This document shows, piece after piece, positions 5,098 to 32,429 of a stretch of DNA of 64,000 nt. This stretch comes from Patescibacteria group bacterium (GTDB taxonomy: Bacteria > Patescibacteriota > Microgenomatia > 2-02-FULL-39-11). Under the pieces are notes generated by a model. That model ran no database searches. It was not told where the DNA came from and saw only the letters and a list, made by a program, of their open reading frames with translations. Each line of letters starts with the position of its first letter. Position 1 is the first letter of the stretch. The stretch lies in assembly GCA_023379265.1 (NCBI GenBank), contig JAMCUI010000019.1, forward strand, positions 9,233-73,232, given 5' to 3'. A program made the position numbers and the translations under genes.

Positions 5098-5110
5098 AAG
5101 TAAGAAATCC

Positions 5111-10881: not shown

Positions 10882-11511
10882 ATGGGAAAGAAGATAAAAA
10901 AGATAAAAATCGGTTTGGATTTTGACGGAGTGGTTGCCTATAACCCTTTTAGAGTGGTACGCGCTCCGTGGGCTTTTTTCAAAAACAGATTTTTGGGGTA
11001 TAAGAAATTAGTCTTTTTTTATCCGCGGAATACCTGGCAGCAGGTTTTTTGGCGGATCTTGCACGATTCGAGCATTTTTCCTTCAAAAGGGGTGAATTTA
11101 TTGCGTCAGTTGGTAAAAGAAGGAAAATTTGAGGCTCATCTTATTTCAGGAAGATACAGTTTTCTTGACGACCAATTAAACAGCTGGCTAAAAAAAAATA
11201 AGCTGGAAGGGATTTTTACCACAATAAATATAAACAGAAAAGATGAGCAGCCTCATCTTTTCAAAAAAAGTATGATTGCCAAGCGCAAACTGGATTTCTT
11301 TATTGAGGACAATTGGGATATTGTAGAGTTTTTGCACAACGTACATGGGGAAAAGACAAAAATTTACTGGATATACAATCTTTTGGATAGGCACAGGGTC
11401 CATAAGAATAAGTTTCCGTATCTTGAAATGGCACTTGTGGATATAGTTGAAGTCACAATGAGTCAAAGTAACATACATTCAAGGAGACAAAGGGGTATAA
11501 AAGAGAAATGA
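10882..11511 (+). CDS. HAD-superfamily-like hydrolase (5'-nucleotidase-like), hypothetical
   Basis: Motif I DFDGV near the N-terminus. Start moved to the in-frame ATG at 10882; the ORF track uses TTG at 10828. Confidence 0.35.
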   Translation: MGKKIKKIKIGLDFDGVVAYNPFRVVRAPWAFFKNRFLGYKKLVFFYPRNTWQQVFWRILHDSSIFPSKGVNLLRQLVKEGKFEAHLISGRYSFLDDQLNSWLKKNKLEGIFTTININRKDEQPHLFKKSMIAKRKLDFFIEDNWDIVEFLHNVHGEKTKIYWIYNLLDRHRVHKNKFPYLEMALVDIVEVTMSQSNIHSRRQRGIKEK

Positions 11512-11562: not shown

Positions 11563-12729
11563 ATGAAAATCCTTTTTTCCCTCACTTATTACTCCCCATA
11601 TGTTTCTGGTTTGACTTTATATGTCAAACGGTTGGCTGAAAAACTGGCACACAAGGACATAAATGTGAACGTCTTGTGTATGAAGCATGATAAAAAACTT
11701 CCATCCTTCGAGATAATTAACGAAGTTGAGATATACAGGGCCCAACCTCTTTTCAAAGTCAGCAAAGGGTTTTTCTCTATTGATTGGATATGGAGAAGCT
11801 TTTCCTTTGTAAGAAAGAGTGAGGTGGTGATTGTGAATTTGCCCCAATTTGAAGGAATAGTCCCGGCATTTATCGCAAGACTACTGGGTAAAAAACTCAT
11901 AAGCGTCTATCATTGTGAGGTAGTTTTGCCCGATGGAATTATCAATAGTATAATCCAGAAATTCCTGGAGTGGTCAAACAAATTGACGCTTTTTCTTTCT
12001 GAAACAGTAATTACTTATACTGAGGATTTTGCGGATAACTCAAAACAATTAGCAGGTCTTAAGGATAAATTAATATATATTTATCCGCCTATTTCTGAGC
12101 CGAAAGTCAATAAAAGAGTACAGAATATGATCAAGAATAAAATTGGCATAGGACAACCGTTTGTCATTGGTGTAGCCGCAAGACTAGCGGCTGAGAAGGG
12201 GATACAATATTTATTTGAGGCGATACCGGATATAATCAAAAATCAAAAATCAAAAATCAAAAAGAATGGTATAAAGATAGTAATCGCCGGTTCAATGGAT
12301 CCTGTAGGAGAAGAAAATCATAGAAATAAAATCTTAAGCCTGGCAAAGAAATATAAAGACTTAATTATCTTTTTGGGAGAGATAGAGCCTGAAAATATGG
12401 GTTCTTTTTATTCTCTTCTGGACGTTTTGGTTTTACCGTCTGTCAATTCTACTGAGGCTTTTGGCATGGTGCAGATAGAGGCAATGATGATGGGGGTACC
12501 TGTAGTAGTGAGCGATCTTCCGGGAGTGAGGGTTCCTGTTCGGAAAACTAAAATGGGAAAGACGGTACCTGTTGGTCAAAGCCAAAAGTTAGCCAGTGCC
12601 ATAGTAGAAGTGTTACAGAGTAGATATACATTTATTAGAGATAGACAGTTGATAGAGAAAGAATTTTCCTTCAAAAGGACATTAGATCTTTATGCGGGTA
12701 TATTAGGTTATAAAAATAAGAAAATCTGA
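11563..12729 (+). CDS. GT-B glycosyltransferase, family GT4-like
   Basis: [21 protein letters not shown] (E-x7-E donor-binding motif) and overall GT4 architecture. Confidence 0.75.
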
Positions 12730-12747
12730 ATTTTTGTAAGTGGGGAG

Positions 12748-14277
12748 ATGAAAGATAAAAGGGTACGTTATTTATTGATTTTAATACTTGTTTTGGGTAG
12801 TGTGGTGAGATTATTCCATCTTGACCGGTTACCCGGAGAGATTTATGGAGATATATCAATTAATATCGAATACCTAGAAAGGATAAGCCAATTGGGATGG
12901 CCGCATAATTTTGTCTTATCTGCAGGCCCTTTTTATTATTATGCTGTTTTTCCAATAATTTTCTTTTTGGGTAATAATTATCTCGCTTTGAAGATTGGAT
13001 CCAGTATATTTGGTATATTAACCATTTTTTTCACATTTTTACTAAGCAGGAAATTAGCCAATCTACAAATAGCCCTTATTGCATCGTTGTTCACTGCTAT
13101 TTCTTTTTGGGTTTTGATTTTTAGCAGATTAGGGAATATTCAAATAATTATCCCTTTAATTATAATCCTGTCTTATTATTTTCTTATTCTTTGGCTAGAG
13201 AGAATTTCCGATAAAAAAGACGGATCATCTTATTTATTTTTGTCGCTAATTTTTGCATGCTTCGGTTTATATACCATGCCTCAGTCATTTATTCTCCTGC
13301 CTCTTATAATATTGACTATATTATTTTATTTATTCTTTTGGCGAAAAAAGATAGAGAATGCACAGGAAATAATTCTTAAGACGTTATTATTATCTTTTAT
13401 ACTTTCCATACCCTTTATTTTCCTTGTTTATTCCGATCTAGCCAATTTTACTCATGGTTATATCGGTGGGAAACTTGGTCTACACCAAGATGTTACGGCT
13501 ACATTGAGCCAATCTCTCATAAATCTTAAACGTGCACTTATGATGTTTAACATAAAGGGAGATATGGTTTTTAGGAGTAATATCTCAAAAGCTCCACATT
13601 TGGATTTCGTGTCTGGGCTGTTACTTATTCTTGGTATAATTATTTGGTTTTGGAAGAATAGACAGATGGCGATAATGTTTGGATTGTTACCGGTTTTTGT
13701 ACTTTTACTTCCTTCCGTACTGGTTTTGGGTCGCCCTCAAGAAGTGCCGAGTGCTTCCCGTGCCATCGGTGTGACTCCGTTTATTTATCTGTTAATAGCG
13801 TATGGCTTTTCAGGTTTGTATGGGTTCCTGAAGCCGAAAATTTCCAAACACATTGCTGTCTTTATTTTGACTGTTATTTTTTGCCAGATTACTTTAGCAA
13901 ATATGCAAAATTATTTTATAAAGTATGCTTACGGGTTACCAAATCACAATCTTGCTTTTGACAGGATTATTGCTAACTGGATAGTGAAGCTACCCTCGCA
14001 GACAAAAGTGTATCTTACTTCATGTTGTTGGGGAGATTGGGGACAACCTGAGCCTAAAGGAGTTTATTATTCACTTGATATACAGGATAGAGGAAGGTAT
14101 TATTTTACACCGCAGTTAAATTGCATGAATTTCCAAAGTACTTCTCCTTACGTCATAATTCTTGATCCAAAAGATAGGATACGGATAAATTCTCTTTATG
14201 AGTGTTTGCATAAATACGTTCATACTTATAAAGCTGGAAACACTGATGTGTTTTCTTATATTTCTTCCTCTTATTAA
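12748..14277 (+). CDS. Polytopic membrane protein, putative GT-C-like glycosyltransferase
   Basis: 509 aa with about 11 or more TM helices. The short N-terminal loop has acidic residues (GEIYGDISINIEYLE). Confidence 0.45.
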   Translation: MKDKRVRYLLILILVLGSVVRLFHLDRLPGEIYGDISINIEYLERISQLGWPHNFVLSAGPFYYYAVFPIIFFLGNNYLALKIGSSIFGILTIFFTFLLSRKLANLQIALIASLFTAISFWVLIFSRLGNIQIIIPLIIILSYYFLILWLERISDKKDGSSYLFLSLIFACFGLYTMPQSFILLPLIILTILFYLFFWRKKIENAQEIILKTLLLSFILSIPFIFLVYSDLANFTHGYIGGKLGLHQDVTATLSQSLINLKRALMMFNIKGDMVFRSNISKAPHLDFVSGLLLILGIIIWFWKNRQMAIMFGLLPVFVLLLPSVLVLGRPQEVPSASRAIGVTPFIYLLIAYGFSGLYGFLKPKISKHIAVFILTVIFCQITLANMQNYFIKYAYGLPNHNLAFDRIIANWIVKLPSQTKVYLTSCCWGDWGQPEPKGVYYSLDIQDRGRYYFTPQLNCMNFQSTSPYVIILDPKDRIRINSLYECLHKYVHTYKAGNTDVFSYISSSY

Positions 14278-14304
14278 TAAAAATATTTATTATCTTACCC
14301 CAAA

Positions 14305-15093
14305 ATGAGAAAAATTGAATTGTTTCTGAAGAGATATATTAAAGAAAGACCATTATTTTTATCCCTGATTCGTGCCAGAGAAGCGGTGCTTTTTCAGAGT
14401 TATTTACCATTAGAAAGTCCAATACTTGATGTGGGTTGCGGGGATGGATACTTCGCTAGGGTAACCTTATCGAATAATTTTCAGGTCGAGAAGTCGATGA
14501 TTGATGTCGGATTGGATGTAAAAGGCAGTCGGATAGAAGAAGCAAAAAAAATTAATGTATACAAGAAACTGGTTACTTATGAGGGTAAAAATATGCCTTT
14601 CAAAACTAATTATTTCTCAACTGTTGTATCAAACTGTGTCTTGGAACATATAAACGATTTGGACCTGATTCTTGAGGAGATAAACCGTGTTCTGAAACCG
14701 GGAGGTTTATTTCTAACGACAGTGATGGCAGCTCCATGGGAAAGAAATCTCTTCATGACTAAAATTGTGGGTAATTGGTATAAAGACTGGATGAGAAAAA
14801 AACAGGTGCATATCAATTTATTAACGAAAGAACTTTGGGATAAGAGATTTAGAGACGCAGGTTTTCAGATAAAAAGGGTTGAAGGATATTTATCGCCAAA
14901 AGCATGTAGACTGATCGATTTTTGCCATTATATATCCATTCCGAATCTTATTAGTTATAAACTCTTTGGGAAATGGGTTTTATTTCCAAGAATAGCTAGC
15001 GCTGTTTACCCAGAGGGGTGGTTGGCTGAAGTCTTGGAGGAAAAAGTGGAAACGGATACGTCTGGCGCAATATTTTACGTATTGGAGAAATAA
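14305..15093 (+). CDS. Class I SAM-dependent methyltransferase
   Basis: Motif I LDVGCGDGYF and post-I LKPGGLFL. Confidence 0.7.
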   Translation: MRKIELFLKRYIKERPLFLSLIRAREAVLFQSYLPLESPILDVGCGDGYFARVTLSNNFQVEKSMIDVGLDVKGSRIEEAKKINVYKKLVTYEGKNMPFKTNYFSTVVSNCVLEHINDLDLILEEINRVLKPGGLFLTTVMAAPWERNLFMTKIVGNWYKDWMRKKQVHINLLTKELWDKRFRDAGFQIKRVEGYLSPKACRLIDFCHYISIPNLISYKLFGKWVLFPRIASAVYPEGWLAEVLEEKVETDTSGAIFYVLEK

Positions 15094-15102: not shown

Positions 15103-16830
15103 TCAAAAAGAATTGATCTGCAAATTGGGTACGAACCAGATATCTGAGCGGTAAACGGCTTCTTTTATCCTTTCTTCTCGATTGTTCCACTTATAGCGAA
15201 AATCAGAGATATTGATTTTCTTTATATTGTGTTCCAGGAATCCCAAACATTCTTTTTTGTCAGTAAAAATTATGGTATTTATCCGGTCATTCAGGTTAGA
15301 AAAGCAGGGAGCTTGATAGCTAATTATTTTGAAGTTGGGAAAGAAGTATTTCAGATGGTCCGGAAAGAGGTCAAAATCCGGATTGTTACTGTATATGGCA
15401 AATTGAATTGTGTCTTCATGGTTGATATTTTCCTTTTGCGCGCTGGCAATTGTTTCCCGTAGAACCAATGATCGAAGTCCAAAATATTTTTGCGACCTGT
15501 CATAAATATCAAACTCATAATAGACTGCAATGCCGCATATGGTCAGAAAAAGTATGGAACACCAGAAGAACCTGATGTTTACTTTATAGGTAGAGATGAT
15601 ATCTATCATTGCTGCAATGATTATAGGGATAATAATTATGCTGCGATGAATACCAAAAGAGGGTGGAGGAGTAGCATAGCCGATTGATTGGCCTGAGATA
15701 ATAATGATCCCCAATACCCATAAGGCAATAAAAAAATGCACCTTTTTCCATCTTAGGGTGAGAGCTCCAGCAAGATATAGTATGATTGGAATTGACATTA
15801 TTGCTCCGGCAAAAGGCAGTTGGTTATTATACATGTCGGTATTTTTTATGAAAAAATATTGTAATGACTCTTGTGAATTGAAGAGTAGGGTTGAATAATT
15901 CATTTTTTCCCTAAATAAATTTATCCGTATGTCTTTTCGATTTAAAATTGAGTTTATACCAGATACAGTAGTGGCAAAAAGGCATACGAACAGAAGAAGT
16001 ACAGCAAGCTTTTTCCCATAGAAATAGTTTTTTACCAGTATAATTCCCGTTAGTAAGATAAAAAGAACCGCGCTAGCGAGCGCCGGAGTATATGTTGATG
16101 TCAAAAGTGACAAAATAAAGTAAAGAGCCGTGATTCTGGTTAAGTTTGGTTTTTTTGCTGTGATGAGAAATACACCAGTTGCCGCAAGGGTGAAGGAGAG
16201 AGGTAAAATTACCTGTTCAAATGTCCGGATGATAACTAAAACCACAGGAAAAGCAATAATAGCAAGGACTCCCAATGCTGCAATAAAGTGAATATTCTTC
16301 CGTTTGTCAAAATATATATTCAGACCGCTGTAAAAAAGGAATATTCCCAGAATAAACGGTAAAATAAATCCCAGGCGGTAATTTATTATAGATCTTTGGT
16401 TTGTGAGTTCCGTTGGCAAAGCGGCAATTAAATATTGACGGCTGGGATATCCGAGAAAAGCATTTTGGGCATAACCCAAATCTTTTTTGGCAAAGTTAGT
16501 TAGTCCTGCAGCTACTTCCTGTGTCGCCTCTCCTGAAATATCAATTGGGAAACTGTTGAGTTTAGATGAGACAAGCAAAGTGACAAAAAGAAGCGCAAGT
16601 ATGCCCCACATTTTTTTTTGCCTTAAATCAACGTTGATAATTTTTACAATCCAATATAATGAAAAAAAGAAAAAATAAATAAGAAATATCAACCAGATTT
16701 GACCTGAAATTGTTGCCGCTGTTGTCGAATAATTACCGGATTTTCCGTAAGAGAGCGTGTCTAGAATTGAGATGCTTGCCCCAGCGATAATTACTGTGGC
16801 AGGAAGAATGGATTTTCTGATTTGAGTCAT
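15103..16830 (-). CDS. Polytopic membrane protein, putative GT-C-like glycosyltransferase
   Basis: 575 aa, many TM helices. Its start overlaps the stop of the upstream gene by ATGA. Confidence 0.45.
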   Translation of the reverse strand: MTQIRKSILPATVIIAGASISILDTLSYGKSGNYSTTAATISGQIWLIFLIYFFFFSLYWIVKIINVDLRQKKMWGILALLFVTLLVSSKLNSFPIDISGEATQEVAAGLTNFAKKDLGYAQNAFLGYPSRQYLIAALPTELTNQRSIINYRLGFILPFILGIFLFYSGLNIYFDKRKNIHFIAALGVLAIIAFPVVLVIIRTFEQVILPLSFTLAATGVFLITAKKPNLTRITALYFILSLLTSTYTPALASAVLFILLTGIILVKNYFYGKKLAVLLLFVCLFATTVSGINSILNRKDIRINLFREKMNYSTLLFNSQESLQYFFIKNTDMYNNQLPFAGAIMSIPIILYLAGALTLRWKKVHFFIALWVLGIIIISGQSIGYATPPPSFGIHRSIIIIPIIIAAMIDIISTYKVNIRFFWCSILFLTICGIAVYYEFDIYDRSQKYFGLRSLVLRETIASAQKENINHEDTIQFAIYSNNPDFDLFPDHLKYFFPNFKIISYQAPCFSNLNDRINTIIFTDKKECLGFLEHNIKKINISDFRYKWNNREERIKEAVYRSDIWFVPNLQINSF

Positions 16831-18803
16831 GGAGAGGATCGGTCTAAATAAATCAGACTGAAATAGTCAACCGGTTTTATTTTTTTGAAAATGATCACTT
16901 TTGGATGATCATAGACTGTAAATGATTCATCAGCATAGTCGTCAACAAAGCTTATACCCGATAGGGGACAATTCTGGCTTTTATATGCCACAATTCCGTA
17001 GCGGGAAAAGGGTGGGGTAAGGCACAAACGGATGAATGGTAACGGCAGATTGGGTCGGGAAGTGAACTCAGCTATTTTTTCAAAACCCAGCGTGCCGTTG
17101 AAAAGATCTGTGTAATATCTGTTTGTGATGGGGTATCGGCTGGGTACTGTCATAATTGAGCCGTAGAGTCTGTTGCTTGAGAGAAATATATAGTTGACCT
17201 CTTGAAGTCTTTGAGTCATATCTTTCCATTTTTCAAGGCTGTCTGGGTTATAGAGAGGGAATTCCACAGTTTTATAAAATAATCCTGACGATTTATTATC
17301 CAGGCTTAAAGGTAAACCGTCGTCCCAATGTTCACTTGAGACAACCGAACCGGGTGGAATATTTTGGTATATCCAGTTGGATGCATCAATTCTGGAATTA
17401 TTACGGGCGTAGATTGATACAAAAGAAAAGGGGTAAATAAGGATAAGTATGATAAATGCAAAAGTCAGTAATGATAGGATTCTTGCAGACAATTTATATT
17501 TATCATGCAAGGCAGAGAAAATTTTTGTGGTAAAAAGGGCGGTTACGACGGTAATAAACGGATAGATCAGTATAAAATATCTCATGGCTTTGACAAATTG
17601 GGCTCCCTGGTAGAGAAAAACATAATCGACAAAAAAAAGTGCAGCGAAAAAGAGAAAATCACAATCGCATTGCAGTGATTTTGATACTTCGATCTTTTTC
17701 AATATCAATCCTGAGCTTGCCGAACGGATTGATTTTCTCCAATTTTTCAGTTTGTTAAAAAAAATCAGGTTGTACCAGAGAAATGCAGTAAGAGTTAGAA
17801 GCCCAATAGGCAAACCCATTCCCCAGAAAACGAAGTTCTTAATCGGAAAGATGTAAGGTCTTGTAGTGATCCATTGTACTCCTGGTGGAAACCAAGCATT
17901 CGGGTCATCAAAAGAACGCAGTTGTTTCCAGTTCTCGATCAGTTTGGGATTAGGAAGAGGATTTAGAACGTTTCCAGAGATAAAGGCATACGGTTGGGTT
18001 ATGCGGAAGGAAATATAAAGTGATAACGAGAAAATAAACCCGCAGGTAAAAATATGCAGTAGTTTCCTTTCTTTTAGTAACAGGAAAATGTAACAGAGTC
18101 CAATTATTGGAAGGATGATTAAAGCTGTTATTTTACTTGCTGCTGCAAGACCAAGCGATATCCCTAGAAGTGAACTGAAAATAAAGACTTTATAATCGTA
18201 TATTGAGATATGGAGAACAATCTTAATAAGAAGAAAAAATGTTAGGGCAGTAAAGAATGTAAGGTATGTGTCTACTGCAAAATAATGCGATAGTTGGATG
18301 GGTAGAGCAGATACGGCATAAAACAACATTGATAAAAGCGGAAAAAGGTCAAGCGATTTTATAGAGTATTCTTTCCCAAGAAGGCTAAATTTGAAGGAGG
18401 TAGGTTTCAGAAGTTTTGATCTTGAGATTAACCCACGGGCAATAAGAAATACTAGAAGGACGGTACCAAGGTCAAATCCGGCAGATAACTGTCGCCCAAC
18501 GATGGTAAGGTTGTTGTAATCTGATTTACTGAGAATATCTGCAACAAATTTAGTTAGGAATAGGGGAAACGTGCCATATACAAAAAAGCCAAAGCCTCGA
18601 TTGTGGGGATTTAGAGGAGATTGGGAAGTATTGAAATATTCAAATAAATCTTGAGGCCATAAAATAGCGTTTCCTACCATGGTAAGGAATCTTTCGTCAG
18701 GATGGAGGTGTTGGTTGTTATCCCAGTTAATTCCATAAAATCTGAAAAAAGCGGCAAGAAAGAGAATTACTATTATCAATAATTTATACGACTTTATCCT
18801 CAT
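16827..18803 (-). CDS. ArnT/PMT-like GT-C glycosyltransferase (DE motif)
   Basis: First extracytoplasmic loop carries HPDERF, matching the canonical GT-C/GT39/GT83 DE-x-x-(F/Y) motif. About 13 TM helices; C-terminal soluble domain ends ...DESFTVYDHPKVIIFKK. Start moved to the ATG at 18803. Confidence 0.55.
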   Translation of the reverse strand: MRIKSYKLLIIVILFLAAFFRFYGINWDNNQHLHPDERFLTMVGNAILWPQDLFEYFNTSQSPLNPHNRGFGFFVYGTFPLFLTKFVADILSKSDYNNLTIVGRQLSAGFDLGTVLLVFLIARGLISRSKLLKPTSFKFSLLGKEYSIKSLDLFPLLSMLFYAVSALPIQLSHYFAVDTYLTFFTALTFFLLIKIVLHISIYDYKVFIFSSLLGISLGLAAASKITALIILPIIGLCYIFLLLKERKLLHIFTCGFIFSLSLYISFRITQPYAFISGNVLNPLPNPKLIENWKQLRSFDDPNAWFPPGVQWITTRPYIFPIKNFVFWGMGLPIGLLTLTAFLWYNLIFFNKLKNWRKSIRSASSGLILKKIEVSKSLQCDCDFLFFAALFFVDYVFLYQGAQFVKAMRYFILIYPFITVVTALFTTKIFSALHDKYKLSARILSLLTFAFIILILIYPFSFVSIYARNNSRIDASNWIYQNIPPGSVVSSEHWDDGLPLSLDNKSSGLFYKTVEFPLYNPDSLEKWKDMTQRLQEVNYIFLSSNRLYGSIMTVPSRYPITNRYYTDLFNGTLGFEKIAEFTSRPNLPLPFIRLCLTPPFSRYGIVAYKSQNCPLSGISFVDDYADESFTVYDHPKVIIFKKIKPVDYFSLIYLDRSSP

Positions 18804-18811
18804 ATTAATAG

Positions 18812-20812
18812 TCAATATTTTATCAGTTTCTGAAAAAGAGAAAGATATTGATTTTCTGATAATACCTTGGTTTTCTTGAATATTCTTATTACCGGATGGT
18901 CAAAAACTGTCCATGTTTCCTCCGCATTTTCATCAGGGAAATGTATAGAACCAAGCGATGGATATGAAGAAATTTCAAAAACTTTTTCAAATCCCAACGT
19001 TCCAGAAAATAATAATTGATAATATTTTGTGATCAAAGGATATTCTGCCGGAAGGCGCATATAATTGGCAAAAATGCGTCGGGAAGGAACAAGGATATAA
19101 TCAGCTTTAGTAAGATCAAAAATCAGTTGGGAAAATAATTGAGGGTTTTCGTCAGTGTGATAGAAGTCAAAGGAAATAATAGTATAGTTGTGGGTTGTAA
19201 GTTGTGGGTTGTAAGTTGTGGGAAGAAAAAGTGGTATATCCACGACGTTGGCTGTCTCGGAAAGAATGAATGAGTGGTCTGGAATATTTTTATAGATCCA
19301 TTCTGAGGCTATGATGCGGGAGTCTGGACGGATGTAAATGGACATGAAAGCAAGGCCGGGGAGAAGAGATATAAATACAAATATGCAAATAAGCAAATAA
19401 GCGAATCGTGGAATATGAAGCGTAAAGTGTAATGCGGAAAGATTATTTCTTAAGGTTTTAAGTATAAAGTATAAAGAGCATACGGCAAAGATGTTGAAAA
19501 AGGGCAGGAGTGGAGTCATAAATCTGGTCCATTTGGAAAAAAGGAAGGCGTTGGGGAGGAGATAGGCAAGAAAAGAAGAATCAAGAAGCAAGAAGTATGA
19601 ATCAAGGTTATTATTTTTGCCAATTTTATTCTTAATTCTTAATTCATCATTCATAATTCTTTGCAGAATTTTTGATGAAAGAGAAATTATAAGATTTCCG
19701 CTTGTTAATAAAAATCCCAGTATGCCAAATATGAAAACTGGCCAACCCAGAGTGTAGGGAAATATTCTTTCCGTCTGAAAGACTATTGGAGTAGTATTTA
19801 CAAACTGGCGGGTATAAAAAGCTGGATATTTGCCAGTGGCAACATCTTTCTCATAACCAAATACGGCACTTTGGAAATCCGGTATGTCCACCATGTTGTA
19901 TGGTGAGGAAAGAAGAGAAATTAGGACGGTTCCTGTTAAGACAATAAGACCTACAACAACATATACTGATTTTGTTTTTAATCTCATTTTTCCTTTTGCT
20001 TTGGTCATAAGAAGTAGTAATGTCATAAGTGGAGGGAAAAGAAATAAGACACCGGTAAGTTTGCTGCCAATGGCAAGGCCTATTGTAAGGGAAAGAAGCA
20101 AAATATCCCTGAAATGTACTTTAATGTAGCTACCAAGAGTGATCTGTTTAAGAGGTTTGTCTATTAATCTTATGGAAAAGTAAACTGAAAGGAGGAAAAA
20201 TAATGTAAGGAATGATTCTGTGGTGCCAAAATGCGCTGATTGGATAAGTCCTGGAGAAAAAGCCGCCAGAAGAGAAGCAATAATTGGTAAATGAAGAACG
20301 GTAATTGGGGAGGGAGGGAGAATCATTCCGAATAATTTTTGGGTAAAAAGGAAGATAAATAAGACCGTTAGAGAAGAAGCGATAGCTGACCAGAAACGCA
20401 ACCAATAGATAGCAGAGGTGAAGTCAGTTGTGAGTTGTGGATTGTGAGTTGTGGATTGGTGTGGGTTGATATGATTAATTAGATTGATTGGGATTTTGGA
20501 AATTTGGTCGCTGACAAAGGCAAGATATAGGGGGAATTGTCCATAAGCGAAGAAATGTGGATTGAGATTGCAATTAGTTGTGAGTTGTGGATTGTGAGTT
20601 GTGGATTGAGAAGTGTTAGAGAAGAATTGAGTATTGATACATGAGATTATTCCTGCTGGATTGGATGGTAGAGTATATTGAGTGATAGCGCCTGCCATAT
20701 TTCTTTCATCAGGATCAAAGAAATATGGTGCATCATGCATCATGCCGTAAAAACGTAGCAGAGTGGCGGCTATAAGAATTATGGATAGAAATGGTTTTTT
20801 TCGATCAATCAT
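18812..20812 (-). CDS. ArnT/PMT-like GT-C glycosyltransferase, paralog of the preceding gene, carrying in-frame NPQLTT tandem repeats
   Basis: DPDERN motif in the first loop. C-terminus EETWTVFDHPVIRIFKK matches the neighbour. Internal nucleotide repeats are listed separately. Start placed at the in-frame ATG at 20812 (ORF track: TTG at 20833). Confidence 0.55.
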   Translation of the reverse strand: MIDRKKPFLSIILIAATLLRFYGMMHDAPYFFDPDERNMAGAITQYTLPSNPAGIISCINTQFFSNTSQSTTHNPQLTTNCNLNPHFFAYGQFPLYLAFVSDQISKIPINLINHINPHQSTTHNPQLTTDFTSAIYWLRFWSAIASSLTVLFIFLFTQKLFGMILPPSPITVLHLPIIASLLAAFSPGLIQSAHFGTTESFLTLFFLLSVYFSIRLIDKPLKQITLGSYIKVHFRDILLLSLTIGLAIGSKLTGVLFLFPPLMTLLLLMTKAKGKMRLKTKSVYVVVGLIVLTGTVLISLLSSPYNMVDIPDFQSAVFGYEKDVATGKYPAFYTRQFVNTTPIVFQTERIFPYTLGWPVFIFGILGFLLTSGNLIISLSSKILQRIMNDELRIKNKIGKNNNLDSYFLLLDSSFLAYLLPNAFLFSKWTRFMTPLLPFFNIFAVCSLYFILKTLRNNLSALHFTLHIPRFAYLLICIFVFISLLPGLAFMSIYIRPDSRIIASEWIYKNIPDHSFILSETANVVDIPLFLPTTYNPQLTTHNYTIISFDFYHTDENPQLFSQLIFDLTKADYILVPSRRIFANYMRLPAEYPLITKYYQLLFSGTLGFEKVFEISSYPSLGSIHFPDENAEETWTVFDHPVIRIFKKTKVLSENQYLSLFQKLIKY
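19186..19223. repeat. 14-nt tandem repeat (AGTTGTGGGTTGTA, about 2.7 copies) inside a CDS
   Basis: Direct read; encodes TTYNPQLTTHN on the - strand. Confidence 0.85.
20426..20607. repeat. Two identical 32-bp segments (20426-20457 and 20576-20607), each an internal tandem of a 14-mer, inside the same CDS
   Basis: AGTTGTGAGTTGTGGATTGTGAGTTGTGGATT appears twice, exactly; each copy encodes HNPQLTTHNPQLTT-like peptide. Confidence 0.9.
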
Positions 20813-20984
20813 GGAGGAAAGTTCAAAGCTCAAAACTCAAATGTCAACCCACTCGACAAGCTCAGGGTTGATGCTAAGCATAGTCGAAGCATCAAAACCA
20901 AATACAAAATCTTTTGTTCTTTTTATAAGGTTTTCAGTTTTAAGATACGGTTTTGAATTTTCTCATTTGATATTTAAATTTTAT

Positions 20985-21905
20985 TTAGAGGATATACAGC
21001 ATAAGTATGACGGCGACTCCCCAAAGAATAATTGAGACTATAAGTGGTATATCGGTAGTAATGATTTTTTCTGGTCTTTCACCCTCAGTGCTTTCATATG
21101 CCAGTTGTGCAAAGCGCATAAGGCCATAAATGACAAAAGGAATAGTGATAATCATCCATTTGCGGTCCAATGCCTGAGGTATAAAACTTGTCAAAAAAGT
21201 CCTAAATGGAGCGTTAAATTGTGGCGGTTCCTCAAGGAATGTAAAGAGCGCATACGCCAAAATAGCTGCAGATCCAAACATTGATGTATAAAAATCCAGA
21301 AGGTGTTCTCTATACTGGAAAAGTGTCGGACGTGTGGTAGCTCCCTTAAAAAGGAGCTCCGCGTGTCTTTTGGTGGAGGCTACAAAGAGAGCGACAAAAA
21401 GGATGGTTAGAAAGAGCCAGAAGGGTAAATGATAATTTGTTAGCGCTTCGCCTGCATATGCACGAAGTATAAATGAAAAAGCGATGCCAAGGACATCCAT
21501 GACAGCATGTTTTTTCAAAACCGTCGAGTAAAGAAGATGAAGGGCTGTAAAAGCTGCTGCCGTAATAAAGAACATCGGAGAGATAAGGATGGCTGCAATA
21601 AGACCAAAAAATGCCAGGAAAAAGGCCAATTCCATGGCTGAGTTGATATCAATAAGACCCGCAGCCAGCGGCCTGTTTTTCTTTTCCGCATGAAGCCTGT
21701 CTTGTTTAAGGTCAATAATATCATTGAAAAGATACGAGGCTGAGGAAATTGCACAAAAGATAATAAATCCGTAGATGGAAAGAGTGAAGAAGCGCGGGTT
21801 GAAAAGTTTTCCATTAAATATGATGGCGGCAAAAAGGATAAAATTCTTTACCCATTGGTTTGGACGCAAGGCTATGATGATTGGCGGGATTTTTTTAATC
21901 CTCAT
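20985..21905 (-). CDS. UbiA-family prenyltransferase (decaprenyl-phosphate phosphoribosyltransferase-like)
   Basis: First Asp-rich motif NDIIDLKQDRLH (NDxxDxxxD), about 8 TM helices, and about 300 aa as in DPPR-type UbiA enzymes. Confidence 0.7.
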   Translation of the reverse strand: MRIKKIPPIIIALRPNQWVKNFILFAAIIFNGKLFNPRFFTLSIYGFIIFCAISSASYLFNDIIDLKQDRLHAEKKNRPLAAGLIDINSAMELAFFLAFFGLIAAILISPMFFITAAAFTALHLLYSTVLKKHAVMDVLGIAFSFILRAYAGEALTNYHLPFWLFLTILFVALFVASTKRHAELLFKGATTRPTLFQYREHLLDFYTSMFGSAAILAYALFTFLEEPPQFNAPFRTFLTSFIPQALDRKWMIITIPFVIYGLMRFAQLAYESTEGERPEKIITTDIPLIVSIILWGVAVILMLYIL

Positions 21906-21987
21906 ATTTCGGGTTTGGTATCTAAGGGAAACGCTAATGGTATTTTAGGGTAGAGAGTAAAGAATATCAATAATAGTTATTACATTA

Positions 21988-23241
21988 TTATATAACCTGC
22001 TGATGAATCAGTTTTGCGACTTTTTCACCCATCTCTATGGCATAGTTTGTACCCCTGTCCCATGGGTAGACCATATCCATGTTAGCAATATAGATATTTG
22101 GTAACGGAGTGGTAAACTTAGGCTTAATTTTGGAGTAGTTTAACGGGAATATTGGTTGGGCAAAGGGACCGAAGAATAATTGAGAATTGAGAATTGAGAA
22201 TTGAGAATTGAGCCGGGGATTAATCTTCTTGAGGTATGGCAGGTAAAGATCGAATATTTCCTCTTTAGTCATCTTGAGATACTTATGGTTAGAGGGAAGA
22301 TAGTTTGCTATCCAGGTCAGGTGGTTGCCGCCGTAGTGATTTTCACCAATCATATTGGTTTGGGCGACAACAGCCAGGAAGGGGAAGCCTTTTTCATTTA
22401 TATTTAGCCAATATACTTCGTCTAAAATTCTCTCTTTTGTTATGAGAAGAAGATTGAGGGCGTGTAAGTGTTTTACTGACAATAGTCTATTTTTATATTT
22501 TTCAGGCAATTGGGGAAACATCCTTATGAAGGTAAAAGAAGGAATTGTAACTATCACCCGGTCAAAATCCTTTCTATATTTATTCTCGAATGATTTTCCT
22601 GTAAACACAGTGCACCCCGCTTTTTCCAGTTTATGAGCCAAAGCATCAACAAGCGTCTGATATCCACCTTCCAGGTAACCCAATCTGAGCGTCCTCTTTT
22701 TTATTCTGGCCCAAAACCAGGCCATATTTATTTCTTCTTTGTAACGGCTGAACTTTCCTTCAAGAAGCGGTTCCCAAATGTTGTTGTAGGATTCTTCACC
22801 GAAATATCTTCTTATCCAATCGGTTGCCTTTTGTGATTCCAGTGTTTGTCCTATTGAGGAGGGAATAAGTTTGAGCGCCAGAGTGACAAGACCAGTTCTT
22901 ACTCTATTTCCAAAAGAAAGTGGAGAGAAAGCCAAAAGCTGTAAAGGGGAATTAAATGGGTAAATTTGGCCATTATAATAGTTTGCTGTAAGGGTCTTGG
23001 GGAATATGATTTTTTCACTCAGGCCCAATTTATTTATTAGTGATAGGGCGGCATTGTCATTTGTAAACCAATGGTGATAGTGTCTTTCTACTGACCATTC
23101 CCACCCCGTGGCTTTATAAGTGGCTGCTAACCCCCCTAAATATTTTTCTTTTTCATAAATTGTGACCTGGTGTTTTTTATCTGAGAGGTAGAAAGCTGCT
23201 GAGAGACCCGTAAACCCTCCTCCCACAATTGCTATTTTCAT
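21988..23241 (-). CDS. FAD/NAD(P)-binding Rossmann oxidoreductase (amine-oxidase / UDP-galactopyranose-mutase-like fold)
   Basis: N-terminal KIAIVGGGFTGLSAAFYL dinucleotide fingerprint, then YEKEKYLGGLAAT. A 7-mer microsatellite lies in-frame near the C-terminus. Confidence 0.6.
   Translation of the reverse strand: MKIAIVGGGFTGLSAAFYLSDKKHQVTIYEKEKYLGGLAATYKATGWEWSVERHYHHWFTNDNAALSLINKLGLSEKIIFPKTLTANYYNGQIYPFNSPLQLLAFSPLSFGNRVRTGLVTLALKLIPSSIGQTLESQKATDWIRRYFGEESYNNIWEPLLEGKFSRYKEEINMAWFWARIKKRTLRLGYLEGGYQTLVDALAHKLEKAGCTVFTGKSFENKYRKDFDRVIVTIPSFTFIRMFPQLPEKYKNRLLSVKHLHALNLLLITKERILDEVYWLNINEKGFPFLAVVAQTNMIGENHYGGNHLTWIANYLPSNHKYLKMTKEEIFDLYLPYLKKINPRLNSQFSILNSQLFFGPFAQPIFPLNYSKIKPKFTTPLPNIYIANMDMVYPWDRGTNYAIEMGEKVAKLIHQQVI
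22188..22214. repeat. 7-nt microsatellite (ATTGAGA x about 5) inside a CDS
   Basis: Direct read; encodes SILNSQLF on the - strand. Confidence 0.85.
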
Positions 23242-23270: not shown

Positions 23271-23717
23271 CTATTGAGTAAATTCGACTGTGGGTACATT
23301 GACAATCTTAGTGTTACTTACTACATCTATAGCTGTTAGTTCGGCTTTGCCGGTACTAGTTGATGTGAGGTAGAATTGTGCCTGGCCAATATTGTCGGTT
23401 ACCTGTTGGTCGGCAGGAGAAATAGTGACTCCTTCAAGTGATGACGAAAGTTTGACCGTACGATCCGGTAGCACGTTTCCGTTGACATCCCGCATATATA
23501 CTGAAATTTTTATTTTTGTTCCGGTATTGTCACCGTTTTGGCTTCCAGCAACCCCAACTTGAGGAAAAACGATGACAAATGATTTTAAGGGTGAGGGTAC
23601 AGAATTTTTTGCTCTTAGAATTTGCGATGTGGGTTTTTCCAGCATGACTGTTGACATGGCAGCTATAAAGAGTAGGAAGAAAAGAGTGGAAAGAGTAAGG
23701 AATTTTTTATCTTTCAT
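23271..23717 (-). CDS. Small secreted/membrane-anchored protein, hypothetical
   Basis: N-terminal signal/TM segment and a Thr/Ser/Val-rich beta-like body. Confidence 0.4.
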   Translation of the reverse strand: MKDKKFLTLSTLFFLLFIAAMSTVMLEKPTSQILRAKNSVPSPLKSFVIVFPQVGVAGSQNGDNTGTKIKISVYMRDVNGNVLPDRTVKLSSSLEGVTISPADQQVTDNIGQAQFYLTSTSTGKAELTAIDVVSNTKIVNVPTVEFTQ

Positions 23718-29657: not shown

Positions 29658-29715
29658 ATCTCTTTTTTCCTTCTTGATTGTTTTTCCATTCTTCTGTATC
29701 ATGGATGTTTATTAT

Positions 29716-29736
29716 ATAGTGTAATTATTACACTAT
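29716..29736. promoter_or_regulatory. Perfect 21-bp palindrome ATAGTGTAAT-T-ATTACACTAT, 5 nt upstream of the phosphoribosyltransferase start codon
   Basis: Direct read. The GT-N-AC core pattern is typical of NrtR-type operators as recalled. Confidence 0.45.
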
Positions 29737-29741
29737 TCTAT

Positions 29742-32351: not shown

Positions 32352-32429
32352 CCTTTCTCTCACCCCTTTTTTGTTCGGGCAAAGAAATAGGAGAAAGAAA
32401 CGCCGGCCCGGCGGCAAAAAATAAAAACT

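What the first reader, a model, noticed from the sequence alone, without database searches (positions are those of the whole stretch)
20985..23241. UbiA-family (DPPR-like) enzyme paired with a Rossmann flavoenzyme next to GT-C transferases
In mycobacteria a UbiA-family enzyme makes decaprenyl-phosphoribose, which is converted to the lipid-linked donor for GT-C arabinosyltransferases. Here a 306-aa UbiA protein (NDIIDLKQDRLH) sits beside an FAD/NAD(P) Rossmann enzyme with UGM/amine-oxidase-like N-terminal motifs. Both are immediately downstream of the tandem GT-C trio. A polyprenyl-phospho-pentose or -furanose donor would be an unexpected parallel to actinobacterial arabinan or galactan chemistry.
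Basis: inference. Interest (0 to 1): 0.6.

Follow-up and report, generated by a model that had tools for sequence, protein, structure and literature searches.

The report
Lipid-linked pentose glycosylation operon

Summary
Both ORFs exist as described. They head a minus-strand operon: Ig-like protein, flavoenzyme, UbiA, two paralogous GT-C transferases and one unassigned 12-TM protein.

- **UbiA protein.** It is a DPPR/PPPRS-type phosphoribosyltransferase, not a quinone, heme or chlorophyll prenyltransferase. A profile of its family scores 151 bits against M. tuberculosis Rv3806c and 40 bits against the next UbiA structure. Nine of 11 PRPP-contact residues are identical, and the two changes are conservative.
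- **Flavoenzyme.** It is neither UGM nor DprE1. It has a protoporphyrinogen-oxidase/phytoene-desaturase fold and belongs to the uncharacterised NCBIfam family NF005560.
- **Flavoenzyme context.** It sits beside UbiA only in Gottesmanbacteria. In other Microgenomates it sits beside GT-C genes, often just downstream of pilus-assembly genes. In Chloroflexota it sits beside a flippase-like gene. Elsewhere it is fused to GtrA or LPG_synthase_TM domains next to ArnC/GtrB-type synthases.

The locus is therefore a candidate-phyla variant of the known "three-component" pentofuranose glycosylation systems, with an unstudied flavoenzyme as a fourth part. That enzyme probably modifies the lipid-linked sugar. 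No phosphatase, flippase or DprE2-type reductase was recognised in the operon. All functions are inferred.

The parts
23271..23717 (-). First gene of the operon. A 148-aa protein with an N-terminal membrane anchor or signal and a Big_1 Ig-like domain. It is a candidate acceptor or accessory protein.
   Evidence: Pfam Big_1 at E=1e-11. One predicted TM segment. The same gene precedes the flavoenzyme in Gottesmanbacteria loci L001 and L003-L010. In other Microgenomates the same position holds a 460-aa Ig-like (Big_13) anchored protein rich in Ser, Thr and Pro.
21988..23241 (-). Cytoplasmic FAD enzyme with a PPO/PDS/MAO fold, in the uncharacterised family NF005560 (PRK07233). Proposed to modify the polyprenyl-phosphate-linked sugar donor.
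   Evidence: NF005560 scores 408.5 bits against a cut-off of 252. The AF2 model has pLDDT 94.5. Foldseek gives PPO structures 2ivd and 3i6d, and rice PDS 5mog at TMq 0.83. No TM segment is predicted. Family members are fused to GtrA or LPG_synthase_TM domains.
20985..21905 (-). UbiA-superfamily polyprenyl-phosphate 5-phosphoribosyltransferase (DPPR/PPPRS-like). It would convert PRPP plus polyprenyl-P into polyprenyl-P-ribofuranose-5-P.
   Evidence: NCBIfam DPPR models score 192 and 183 bits, below their cut-offs of 234 and 207. PDB 8j8j matches at E=6e-30 with the single sequence and 6e-43 with the family profile. Residues R14, K20, Y58, N61, D65, K75, R78, Y126 and K131 equal Rv3806c R22, K28, Y70, N73, D77, K87, R90, Y138 and K143. 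H123 replaces Q135 and F145 replaces Y157. All are invariant in 22 homologues.
18812..20833 (-). GT-C-fold glycosyltransferase (GTC_A), the presumed user of the lipid-linked donor. It carries a first-loop PDER motif.
   Evidence: Pfam TMEM260-like scores 31 bits against a cut-off of 24, with weaker PMT and PMT_2 hits. The AF2 model has pLDDT 86.8. All significant Foldseek hits are GT-C enzymes: AglB, ArnT, ALG9/12, PglB, Pmt4 and AftA. It follows UbiA in all Gottesmanbacteria loci.
16827..18815 (-). Second GT-C glycosyltransferase (GTC_B), a paralogue of GTC_A. Its start overlaps the end of GTC_A by 4 nt.
   Evidence: hhalign against the GTC_A family gives probability 100% and E=2e-53. The Pfam PMT score of 22.3 bits is just below the cut-off. 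It is conserved after GTC_A in CPR loci.
15103..16830 (-). Last gene of the operon. A ~12-TM protein of unknown family that overlaps the end of GTC_B by 4 nt. It could be a divergent GT-C or the missing flippase.
   Evidence: No Pfam hit below E=0.09 and no NCBIfam or PDB hit. No relation to GTC_A or GTC_B. No homologue in 85 related loci. ~12 hydrophobic segments.
10882..11511 (+). HAD-like small soluble protein (motif I GLDFDGVV), a candidate 5'-phosphatase for the UbiA product. It is the first gene of the convergent operon.
   Evidence: D13, D15, K128 and D143 are invariant in 10 homologues. Two of 10 members hit PF03767 (HAD IIIB) at ~1e-3. Pfam, NCBIfam and PDB give no other hit. It is syntenic with this cluster and with DUF2298 in Microgenomates.
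11563..15093 (+). Convergent companion genes: a GT4 glycosyltransferase (11563-12729), a PMT_2-type GT-C (12748-14277) and a SAM methyltransferase (14305-15093).
   Evidence: Pfam. The same genes accompany the cassette in L003, L005, L008, L027 and L043.
5111..7567 (-). DUF2298 / Chlor_Arch_YYY polytopic membrane protein, a frequent neighbour of the flavoenzyme cassette in Microgenomates.
   Evidence: PF10060 at E=2e-99. TIGR03662 scores 482 bits. It lies within ±5 genes of the flavoenzyme in 20 of 50 CPR-like loci.

Best explanation
The operon makes and uses a lipid-linked pentofuranose donor for glycosylation outside the cytoplasm.

1. The UbiA enzyme transfers 5-phosphoribose from PRPP to a polyprenyl phosphate on the cytoplasmic face. 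This is inferred from homology and conserved PRPP contacts.
2. The 5'-phosphate is removed, possibly by the HAD-like protein in the convergent operon or by a housekeeping phosphatase. This step is weakly inferred.
3. The flavoenzyme is a soluble, membrane-peripheral FAD protein with a PPO/PDS fold. It acts on the lipid-linked sugar before export. The most likely reaction is oxidation of a sugar hydroxyl, which would make it a non-homologous counterpart of DprE1 and lead to an epimer (Araf or Xylf) or a keto-pentose. This is inferred from context and fusions only.
4. After flipping by an unidentified flippase, the two paralogous GT-C enzymes transfer the pentofuranose to a surface acceptor. Candidates are the co-encoded Ig-like protein, type IV pilins or a wall polymer.

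The flavoenzyme family is not specific to the ribose route. Elsewhere it accompanies ArnC/GtrB-type synthases and GtrA-type flippases. It is best seen as a fourth component of 'three-component' lipid-linked monosaccharide glycosylation systems.
For: UbiA is DPPR-like:
- NCBIfam DPPR models score 192 and 183 bits, against 61 bits or less for other prenyltransferase models.
- 8j8j matches at E=6e-30 and 6e-43, against 6e-5 and 3e-9 for other UbiA structures.
- Nine of 11 PRPP contacts listed in PMC10994848 are identical. The other two are conservative changes (Q to H, and Y to F, the latter also seen in some mycobacteria). All are invariant in the family.

Operon structure:
- The gaps after the Big_1 and flavoenzyme genes are 29 and 82 nt.
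- Both junctions among the three membrane-protein genes are 4-nt overlaps.
- The order Big_1, flavoenzyme, UbiA, GT-C, GT-C is conserved at 45-79% identity in about 10 Gottesmanbacteria-type loci.

GT-C fold.

The flavoenzyme is tied to lipid-linked sugar machinery:
- 39 of 50 CPR-like loci have a GT-C-like neighbour within ±5 genes.
- 16 of 27 Chloroflexota-like loci have an LPG_synthase_TM gene within ±5 genes, mostly immediately upstream on the same strand.
- Fusions exist: LPG_synthase_TM~flavo, GtrA~flavo, GtrA~flavo~GT2~GT2 and 8-TM~flavo. Their flavoenzyme domains are 34-35% identical to the window protein, and one scores 405 bits against NF005560.
- L086 reads ArnC/PgfS-like GT2, then GtrA~flavo, then a 10-TM protein. 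L088 reads GT-C_AftD, PMT_2, TM~flavo, GT2.

Precedent: PPPRS plus flippase plus GT-C, with or without epimerases, is an established pathway (PMC11127046). The M. tuberculosis order GtrA-like Rv3789, dprE1 (FAD), dprE2 (SDR), aftA (GT-C) is from my own knowledge. It is mirrored by SDR, GtrA, amine-oxidase-type flavoenzyme, 9-TM protein in L086.
Against: - No biochemical data exist for any member of either family in these phyla.
- The UbiA protein scores below the curated cut-offs of all three DPPR equivalog models.
- No recognisable flippase (MATE, GtrA or SMR), PAP2 or PRP phosphatase, DprE2 or SDR is in the operon.
- The flavoenzyme sits beside UbiA only in Gottesmanbacteria-type loci. No UbiA was found within ±8 kb in about 70 other loci. 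Its substrate therefore cannot be specifically polyprenyl-P-ribose.
- Known PF01593-type enzymes oxidise C-N or C-C bonds rather than sugar hydroxyls (my own knowledge).
- These organisms are thought to lack quinones (my own knowledge), so the electron acceptor for an oxidase is unclear.
- The acceptor is unknown.
Confidence: 0.55

Rival explanations
1. The flavoenzyme modifies the lipid carrier rather than the sugar. It would saturate or isomerise a double bond of the polyprenyl phosphate, in a dolichol-like alpha-saturation. The PMT-, ALG10- and AglB-like GT-C enzymes of these organisms would then receive an archaeal/eukaryote-type carrier. The UbiA and GT-C roles stay as in the best explanation.
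For: The best TM-score is to phytoene desaturase (5mog, TMq 0.83), and the PPOs rank at the top. All are membrane-peripheral enzymes with hydrophobic or isoprenoid substrates. The enzyme occurs with GT-C and flippase-like genes whether the donor synthase is UbiA, GT2 or not visible. Retinol saturase is a CRTISO/PDS-like flavoenzyme that saturates the double bond of the alcohol-proximal isoprene unit (my own knowledge). A reductase or isomerase would avoid the electron-acceptor problem in anaerobes.
Against: The gene is embedded in, or fused to, individual donor-specific modules (GT2, GtrA~flavo, membrane protein). It is not a stand-alone housekeeping gene. L086 has two different amine-oxidase-type enzymes, each with its own GtrA and polytopic partner, which fits donor-specific chemistry better. 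No dolichol-like lipids are reported for these phyla, and the literature search found nothing.
Confidence: 0.2
2. The flavoenzyme is a UGM-type mutase (galactofuranose chemistry) or a DprE1-type homologue, making the locus a direct homologue of the actinobacterial arabinan/galactan donor pathways.
For: There is N-terminal similarity to UGM (3gf4 at E=6e-4 over residues 2-102). In M. tuberculosis, glf lies near ubiA (my own knowledge).
Against: There is no Pfam GLF hit. No UGM appears among the 50 best fold matches, all of which are PPO, PDS or MAO with full-length alignments. DprE1 belongs to the VAO fold class (my own knowledge), and no FAD_binding_4-type hit was found in the window. No DprE2 or Rv3807c homologue is present in the window.
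Confidence: 0.03
3. The adjacency has no functional meaning. The UbiA protein is a prenyltransferase for a quinone, heme or membrane lipid, the flavoenzyme belongs to a tetrapyrrole or carotenoid-like pathway, and both merely sit in a glycosylation island.
For: The flavoenzyme has a PPO/PDS fold. JGI annotators named homologues 'protoporphyrinogen oxidase' and '4-hydroxybenzoate polyprenyltransferase'. UbiA is absent from most flavoenzyme loci.
Against: The UbiA family profile scores about 110 bits higher against DPPR than against any other UbiA structure, and it keeps the 5'-phosphate contacts K28, Y70 and Y157 (the last as Phe). PMC10994848 says the phosphoribose-binding sites are not conserved in the rest of the superfamily. 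The flavoenzyme scores 59.5 bits against HemY (cut-off 97.85), covering only residues 2-164, and 28.6 bits against CrtI (cut-off 238). Synteny is conserved across about 10 diverged loci, and the flavoenzyme family is fused to GtrA or LPG_synthase_TM domains.
Confidence: 0.07

Closest known systems
Three-component pentofuranose side-chain glycosylation systems (Citrobacter youngae O1/O2 ORF15-ORF14-ORF12, with or without ORF13; Kelly et al. 2024, PMC11127046)
   Same: A UbiA-type polyprenyl-phosphate phosphoribosyltransferase using PRPP is encoded next to GT-C transferases. Auxiliary enzymes can diversify the pentose while it is lipid-linked. Elaborate versions with several GT-Cs are described, and a commentary also notes FAD-dependent oxidoreductases in them.
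   Different: Here the UbiA protein has no fused HAD phosphatase domain. There is no MATE flippase and no ORF13-type SDR or DprE1/E2 in the operon. The GT-Cs are PMT/TMEM260-like and only distantly related to any solved GT-C (TMq ≤0.46). Their relation to GT136 was not tested. The extra enzyme is a PPO/PDS-fold flavoprotein, and the host is a Patescibacteria (CPR) organism.
Mycobacterial decaprenyl-phospho-arabinose pathway (Rv3806c, Rv3807c, DprE1, DprE2, Rv3789, Aft/Emb)
   Same: The first enzyme is homologous, with PRPP contacts conserved. In both, an FAD enzyme sits next to the synthase and GT-C genes, and the logic is a lipid-linked furanose donor used by GT-C enzymes outside the membrane.
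   Different: The FAD enzyme is not homologous to DprE1: PPO/PDS fold versus VAO fold (my own knowledge). No DprE2, PAP2 phosphatase or GtrA-like gene is in the window. There is no evidence for arabinose as opposed to ribose, xylose or a keto-pentose.
Pseudomonas aeruginosa Pa5196/PA7 type IV pilin arabinofuranosylation (TfpW GT-C plus DPPR/DprE1/DprE2 homologues; Harvey et al. 2011, cited in PMC11194591 and PMC11127046)
   Same: This is a PRPP-derived lipid-linked pentofuranose used by a GT-C to O-glycosylate a surface protein. In CPR relatives the flavoenzyme and GT-C cassette lies directly downstream of PilN/PilO-like genes in about 22 of 50 loci. In L006 a whole pilus gene block is inserted between the flavoenzyme and UbiA genes.
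   Different: No pilus genes lie next to the cassette in this window. No pilin glycan is known for any CPR organism, and such glycosylation is only predicted (PMC11623550). The accessory enzymes differ.
GtrABC / ArnC-ArnEF-ArnT / PgfS-type lipid-linked monosaccharide systems
   Same: Members of the same flavoenzyme family (NF005560, 405 bits) are fused to GtrA and flanked by an ArnC/PgfS-like GT2 and a polytopic membrane protein (L086).
   Different: Those systems have no known flavoenzyme component. In the window the GT2 synthase is replaced by the UbiA phosphoribosyltransferase.
Protoporphyrinogen oxidase (HemY), phytoene desaturase and monoamine oxidase superfamily (PF01593)
   Same: Overall three-domain fold at TMq 0.77-0.83, plus the N-terminal FAD-binding motif.
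   Different: Identity is only 14-19%. Sequence-level matches are limited to the first ~170 residues. Scores fall below the cut-offs of the HemY, HpnE and CrtI models. The genomic context is glycosylation, not tetrapyrrole or carotenoid synthesis.

Membership tests
DPPR/PPPRS subfamily of UbiA (Rv3806c-like polyprenyl-phosphate 5-phosphoribosyltransferases) | UbiA-superfamily membrane fold with the first Asp-rich motif NDxxDxxxD | tested here: met
   PF01040 at E=2e-18. The motif is N61-D62-I-I-D65-L-K-Q-D69. About 6 strongly hydrophobic segments were found by a crude scan.
DPPR/PPPRS subfamily of UbiA (Rv3806c-like polyprenyl-phosphate 5-phosphoribosyltransferases) | Closer to DPPR than to any other UbiA subfamily | tested here: met
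   NCBIfam DPPR models score 192, 183 and 127 bits, against 61 bits for the next family. PDB 8j8j scores 151 bits against 40 bits for 4tq3 with the family profile.
DPPR/PPPRS subfamily of UbiA (Rv3806c-like polyprenyl-phosphate 5-phosphoribosyltransferases) | Reaches the curated NCBIfam equivalog cut-off | tested here: not met
   NF008977 scores 191.9 against a cut-off of 234. NF008978 scores 182.8 against 207. NF008976 scores 127.3 against 474. It is a divergent member, not an equivalog by NCBI's criterion.
DPPR/PPPRS subfamily of UbiA (Rv3806c-like polyprenyl-phosphate 5-phosphoribosyltransferases) | PRPP-binding residues of Rv3806c: R22, K28, Y70, N73, D77, K87, R90, Q135, Y138, K143, Y157 | tested here: met
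   The aligned residues are R14, K20, Y58, N61, D65, K75, R78, H123, Y126, K131 and F145. Nine are identical. The changes are Q to H, and Y to F, the latter also found in some mycobacteria. All are invariant in 22 homologues.
DPPR/PPPRS subfamily of UbiA (Rv3806c-like polyprenyl-phosphate 5-phosphoribosyltransferases) | PRPP-dependent transfer of ribose-5-P to a polyprenyl phosphate | not testable with these tools
   This needs a membrane assay with PRPP and farnesyl-P or undecaprenyl-P, as in PMC11127046.
Three-component pentofuranose glycosylation system (Kelly et al. 2024) | PPPRS gene linked to a GT-C transferase gene | tested here: met
   UbiA is followed at 151 nt by GTC_A, whose model has a GT-C fold. 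The linkage is conserved in about 10 loci.
Three-component pentofuranose glycosylation system (Kelly et al. 2024) | Phosphoribose 5'-phosphatase (HAD PRP domain or separate phosphatase) | tested here: inconclusive
   None is fused or in the operon. A HAD-like ORF (10882-11511) lies in the convergent operon with invariant DxD, K and D positions, but profile support is weak.
Three-component pentofuranose glycosylation system (Kelly et al. 2024) | Dedicated flippase (MATE; GtrA or SMR in related systems) | tested here: not met
   No MatE, GtrA or SMR hit in the operon or nearby. The candidates are the unassigned 12-TM ORF at 15103-16830 and a distant 124-aa EamA-like ORF at 57972-58346, which scores 25.3 bits against a cut-off of 28.2.
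Three-component pentofuranose glycosylation system (Kelly et al. 2024) | GT-C of family GT136 | not tested
   No GT136 sequence or structure was available to compare. The best solved relatives are AglB, ArnT, ALG9/12 and Pmt4 at TMq 0.35-0.46.
DprE1 (decaprenylphosphoribose 2'-oxidase) | VAO-type FAD-binding fold (FAD_binding_4) | tested here: not met
   Pfam gives Amino_oxidase and NAD_binding_8 only. All of the 50 best fold matches are PPO, PDS or MAO.
UDP-galactopyranose mutase (Glf/UGM) | GLF domain and UGM fold over the full length | tested here: not met
   No GLF hit. UGM chains match only residues 2-102 at E=6e-4 to 9e-4. UGM is absent from the top 50 Foldseek hits.
Protoporphyrinogen oxidase HemY / phytoene desaturase CrtI-PDS | Full-length profile match above the family cut-off | tested here: not met
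   TIGR00562 scores 59.5 against 97.85, covering residues 2-164 only. crtI_fam scores 28.6 against 238. HpnE scores 55 against 283. The fold is shared, but family membership is not.
NCBIfam NF005560 (PRK07233, 'hypothetical protein'; NAD(P)/FAD-dependent oxidoreductase) | Full-length match above the curated cut-off | tested here: met
   408.5 bits against a cut-off of 252, with residues 1-415 aligned to model positions 1-431 of 435.
GT-C glycosyltransferases | Polytopic GT-C fold with an acidic motif in the first extracytoplasmic loop | tested here: met
   For GTC_A, all 20 best Foldseek hits are GT-C-fold membrane proteins, mostly glycosyltransferases. P41-D42-E43 is nearly invariant. GTC_B is its paralogue and carries HPDERF. 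This is not met for the third ORF, 15103-16830.

The most novel reading that the evidence does not exclude
NF005560-type flavoenzymes are a new class of enzymes that act on polyprenyl-phosphate-linked monosaccharides. They would be a non-homologous replacement for DprE1, or a redox-neutral FAD epimerase. In Gottesmanbacteria they would convert polyprenyl-P-ribofuranose into an arabino-, xylo- or keto-pentofuranose donor that GT-C enzymes use to glycosylate type IV pili or Ig-like surface proteins of candidate-phyla bacteria.
Probability: 0.3. Interest if true: 0.75.

Novelty: new variant of a known kind. Interest (0 to 1): 0.52.

Why it matters
- **Surface chemistry of candidate-phyla bacteria.** These bacteria are obligate episymbionts whose surface and pili mediate host contact, yet their glycosylation chemistry is essentially unexplored (PMC11623550). 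This operon gives a concrete, testable prediction: PRPP-derived lipid-linked pentofuranose donors exist in Gottesmanbacteria.
- **A large uncharacterised enzyme family.** The NF005560 flavoenzyme family has at least 1,348 clusters at 50% identity with E≤1e-30. It is consistently wired into lipid-linked sugar, flippase and GT-C modules and is sometimes fused to the flippase. If it modifies the lipid-linked sugar, the only known precedent (DprE1/DprE2, a major tuberculosis drug target) would gain an unrelated second solution. The catalogue of 'three-component' glycosylation systems would gain a fourth part.

Tried and rejected
- **UGM and DprE1 identity of the flavoenzyme.** Rejected by sequence and fold.
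- **HemY, CrtI or HpnE membership.** Rejected, because scores fall below the cut-offs and only the N-terminus aligns.
- **Apparent 753-aa fusion in L037.** It is a spurious ORF extension in GC-rich DNA, not a fusion.
- **UbiA elsewhere in flavoenzyme loci.** A search with a family HMM on six-frame translations found none outside the Gottesmanbacteria-type loci.
- **HAD-like ORF.** Pfam and NCBIfam on the single sequence and a PDB profile search gave nothing. Only 2 of 10 homologues touch a HAD IIIB model.
- **Third 'GT-C' ORF.** No family could be assigned.
- **GT2 synthase in Levyibacteria-type loci.** A search for one replacing UbiA found none.
- **Literature.** Searches for PRK07233, DUF2298 function, a bacterial polyprenol reductase of PDS type, and DPPR in candidate phyla found nothing relevant.
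- **Promoter and terminator scan.** It added nothing decisive.

Full report
**Observation.** The two ORFs are real and lie on the minus strand. The first is 20985-21905 (306 aa) and the second is 21988-23241 (417 aa). The second begins with a GxGxxG dinucleotide fold and matches Amino_oxidase over its whole length. Near-identical and related proteins carry the names Candidatus Gottesmanbacteria, Microgenomates or Patescibacteria. The window therefore comes from a candidate-phyla (CPR) genome.

**Operon layout.** Transcription runs from high to low coordinates:
- a 148-aa anchored Big_1 Ig-like protein (23271-23717);
- the flavoenzyme, after a 29-nt gap;
- UbiA, after an 82-nt gap;
- a 673-aa membrane protein (GTC_A), after a 151-nt gap;
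- a 662-aa membrane protein (GTC_B) and a 575-aa membrane protein (GTC_C), each overlapping its predecessor by 4 nt.

Only two of the three membrane proteins can be shown to be GT-C, as set out below.

**The UbiA protein.**
- Against NCBIfam, the three best models are decaprenyl-phosphate phosphoribosyltransferase models (191.9, 182.8 and 127.3 bits) together with a HAD-UbiA fusion model (155.6 bits). The best conventional prenyltransferase model reaches 61 bits, heme O synthase 39 bits and UbiA proper 30 bits. None of the DPPR models reaches its curated cut-off, so this is a divergent member.
- Against solved structures, the single sequence hits M. tuberculosis Rv3806c (8j8j) at E=6e-30, with the next protein at 6e-5. 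A profile of 22 homologues hits it at 6e-43 (151 bits), against 3e-9 (40 bits) for AfUbiA.
- The Rv3806c structure paper lists the PRPP contacts (PMC10994848). In the HMMER alignment, R22, K28, Y70, N73, D77, K87, R90, Y138 and K143 are identical in the window protein. Q135 is His. Y157 is Phe, a variant the paper notes in some mycobacteria. All of these positions are invariant in the Gottesmanbacteria family.
- The paper also states that the phosphoribose-binding sites are not conserved in the rest of the UbiA superfamily, so their conservation here is discriminating.

I conclude, by inference from homology, that this enzyme transfers 5-phosphoribose from PRPP to a polyprenyl phosphate.

**The flavoenzyme.**
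- It matches NCBIfam NF005560 (PRK07233, 'hypothetical protein') at 408.5 bits against a cut-off of 252. The HemY, HpnE and CrtI models are matched only weakly; for HemY and HpnE the match is confined to the first ~165-180 residues.
- Against PDB sequences, the best hits are PPOs at E~1e-9 over residues 3-173. UGM appears only at E~6e-4 over residues 2-102.
- An AlphaFold model built on 39 homologues is confident (pLDDT 94.5). Foldseek places it with protoporphyrinogen oxidases, rice phytoene desaturase (TMq 0.83) and monoamine oxidases at 14-19% identity. No UGM is among the 50 best.
- It has no predicted TM segment, and its N-terminus is the Rossmann β-strand, so I infer it is cytoplasmic.

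It is therefore neither UGM nor a DprE1 homologue. It is an uncharacterised member of the PPO/PDS/MAO superfamily. No paper mentions PRK07233.

**The membrane proteins.**
- GTC_A has a TMEM260-like/PMT Pfam signature.
- NCBI names its homologues 'glycosyltransferase family 39' or 'phospholipid carrier-dependent glycosyltransferase'.
- Its model (pLDDT 86.8) significantly matches only GT-C-fold membrane proteins. These are AglB, ArnT, ALG9/12, PglB, Pmt4 and AftA, plus the GPI-transamidase subunit PIGU. The TM-scores are low (0.35-0.46).
- GTC_B is a clear paralogue (hhalign E=2e-53).
- GTC_C is a ~12-TM protein with no detectable family and no counterpart in related loci. It might be a divergent GT-C or the missing flippase.

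**Conservation and context.**
- The order Big_1, flavoenzyme, UbiA, GTC_A, GTC_B recurs in about ten Gottesmanbacteria-type loci at 45-79% protein identity.
- A scan of one genome per species with the flavoenzyme family found at least 600 hits. The best 80 are Microgenomates (Gottesman-, Levy-, Shapiro-, Davies-, Blackburn- and Roizmanbacteria) and Chloroflexota.
- UbiA is next to the flavoenzyme only in the Gottesmanbacteria-type loci. A family HMM finds no UbiA within ±8 kb elsewhere.
- Within ±5 genes in 50 low-GC CPR-like loci, 39 have a GT-C-like neighbour, 25 have GTC_A/B orthologues and 20 have DUF2298. Twenty-four have an Ig-like anchored protein rich in Ser, Thr and Pro immediately upstream, and 22 have PilO-like genes just before that.
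- In Gottesmanbacteria locus L006, a complete pilus-type gene block is inserted between the flavoenzyme and UbiA genes. It contains PilB, PilC, several prepilin-like ORFs and a major pilin.
- Of 27 high-GC Chloroflexota-like loci, 16 have a co-directional LPG_synthase_TM (flippase-like) gene within ±5 genes, mostly directly upstream. Seven have UDP-glucose 6-dehydrogenase nearby.

**Domain fusions.**
- An exhaustive HMM search of 1.84 billion representatives found 1,348 clusters at E≤1e-30. These included the fusions LPG_synthase_TM~flavoenzyme, GtrA~flavoenzyme, GtrA~flavoenzyme~GT2~GT2, an 8-TM domain~flavoenzyme and flavoenzyme~methyltransferase.
- In the three fusions checked by BLASTP (LPG_synthase_TM~, GtrA~ and 8-TM~flavoenzyme), the flavoenzyme domain is 34-35% identical to the window protein over its full length.
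- The GtrA fusion scores 405 bits against NF005560.
- L086 reads ArnC/PgfS-like GT2, GtrA~flavoenzyme, 10-TM protein. Nearby it reads SDR, GtrA, a PRK07208-type amine-oxidase flavoenzyme, 9-TM protein.
- L087 reads GT2, LPG_synthase_TM~flavoenzyme.
- L088 reads GT-C_AftD, PMT_2, TM~flavoenzyme, GT2.
- These are the architectures of classical lipid-linked monosaccharide ('three-component') glycosylation systems with the flavoenzyme inserted at the flippase step.

**Comparison with what is known.**
- Kelly et al. 2024 (PMC11127046) showed that a UbiA-type polyprenyl phosphoribose synthase, a 5'-phosphatase, a flippase and a GT-C add pentofuranose side chains outside the cytoplasm in many bacteria. 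SDR or DprE1/DprE2 epimerases diversify the lipid-linked ribose.
- The accompanying commentary notes elaborate Bacillus systems with several GT-Cs, FAD-dependent oxidoreductases and epimerases (PMC11194591).
- P. aeruginosa uses the same logic to arabinosylate type IV pilin.
- The window fits this kind through its synthase and GT-Cs.
- It lacks a recognisable flippase, an operon-encoded phosphatase and any DprE1/E2- or ORF13-type epimerase.
- A HAD-like ORF (10882-11511, motif GLDFDGVV) sits in the convergent, syntenic GT4/GT-C/methyltransferase operon. It has invariant DxD, K and D positions, but its HAD assignment has only weak profile support.
- No report links DPPR-type enzymes to candidate phyla, and CPR pilin glycosylation is only predicted (PMC11623550).

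**Mechanism proposed.**
- Shown by computation: the family assignments, conserved contacts, folds, synteny and fusions.
- Inferred:
  1. UbiA makes polyprenyl-P-ribofuranose-5-P from PRPP.
  2. A phosphatase, possibly the HAD-like protein, removes the 5'-phosphate.
  3. The flavoenzyme acts on the lipid-linked sugar at the cytoplasmic face. I favour oxidation of a ring hydroxyl leading to an epimer or keto-sugar, in analogy to DprE1.
  4. An unidentified flippase exports the donor.
  5. GTC_A and GTC_B transfer the sugar to a surface acceptor, such as the Ig-like protein, pilins or a wall polymer.

**Main rival.** The flavoenzyme might modify the polyprenyl chain, by saturation or isomerisation in the manner of RetSat or CRTISO (my own knowledge). 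This rival is favoured by the PDS-like fold and by the lack of an obvious electron acceptor in these organisms. It is disfavoured because the enzyme is embedded in donor-specific modules. L086 also has two distinct amine-oxidase-type enzymes, each with its own GtrA and polytopic partner.

**Verdict.** The UGM and DprE1 reading of the flavoenzyme is not. The system is a new variant, in a new phylum and with different accessories, of a known kind. The more interesting lead is the flavoenzyme family itself, as an unrecognised, widespread fourth component of lipid-linked sugar glycosylation systems. Everything functional remains inference.

Noticed in passing
window 19172-19225, 20419-20472, 20569-20622 (inside GTC_A, 18812-20833, minus strand): Three in-frame copies of a short DNA repeat with a 14-nt unit encode 'QSTTHNPQLTT' at residues ~76-86 and 126-136, and a variant ('TTYNPQLTTHN') at ~538-548. 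They coincide with the only AF2 segments below pLDDT 50 and with non-conserved alignment columns, as if a repeat had been inserted into loops of the enzyme.
   Followed up: partly
window 5111-63609: The window is an island of polytopic, GT-C-like membrane proteins, with at least 10 ORFs. They include PMT_2, ALG10/DIE2, YfhO-like and DUF2298 types. There is also a five-member paralogue family with no Pfam hit (39579-41279, 41280-42935, 44847-46592, 58356-59960, 61909-63609). A GT2 ArnC-like synthase, an epimerase/dehydratase, a DegT aminotransferase, a GNAT and a 124-aa EamA-like protein sit among them, which suggests several lipid-linked sugar donors.
   Followed up: partly
L006 9280-16793: In one Gottesmanbacteria genome a complete pilus-type gene block is inserted between the flavoenzyme and UbiA genes. 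It contains a PilB ATPase, a PilC platform protein, several prepilin-like ORFs, a PilM-like ORF and a major pilin. In about 22 other CPR loci the flavoenzyme follows PilN/PilO-like genes and an Ig-like protein rich in Ser, Thr and Pro.
   Followed up: partly
L086 9082-19214; L087 1826-5415; L088 2654-11543; L089 674-5017: The flavoenzyme family occurs fused to GtrA, LPG_synthase_TM, an 8-TM domain, GT2 domains or a methyltransferase. It is flanked by ArnC/PgfS-like GT2 and polytopic proteins. L086 also has a second module (SDR, GtrA, PRK07208-type amine-oxidase flavoenzyme, 9-TM protein), so a sister flavoenzyme family shows the same association.
   Followed up: partly
window 10882-11511: A small soluble ORF with a HAD-like motif I (GLDFDGVV) and invariant DxD, K and D positions. 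It has no Pfam, NCBIfam or PDB match of its own. It is conserved next to DUF2298 and the glycosylation cluster across Microgenomates.
   Followed up: partly
window 3858-5110: About 1.25 kb with no ORF of 70 aa or more and no Rfam family at gathering threshold. It lies between a RadA-like gene and the DUF2298 gene.
   Followed up: no
window 29049-33119: A possible NAD or nucleobase salvage cluster: an NrtR-like regulator, a QRPTase_N-containing protein, a cytosine/purine-type permease and an isochorismatase-family hydrolase.
   Followed up: no
window 1-1158: The window opens with the 3' part of a 23S rRNA gene (model positions 2012-2925) followed by a 5S rRNA. GC skew is positive in every 2-kb bin of the window, whichever strand the genes are on.
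   Followed up: no
window 21988-23241 versus P0121; window 18812-20833 versus P0241 and P0242: The 24-kb public contig that encodes an identical UbiA protein encodes a flavoenzyme only 87% identical (441 aa) and a GTC_A only 76% identical. A different contig has a 100% identical partial GTC_A. Divergence is thus very uneven between neighbouring genes of close strains.
   Followed up: no
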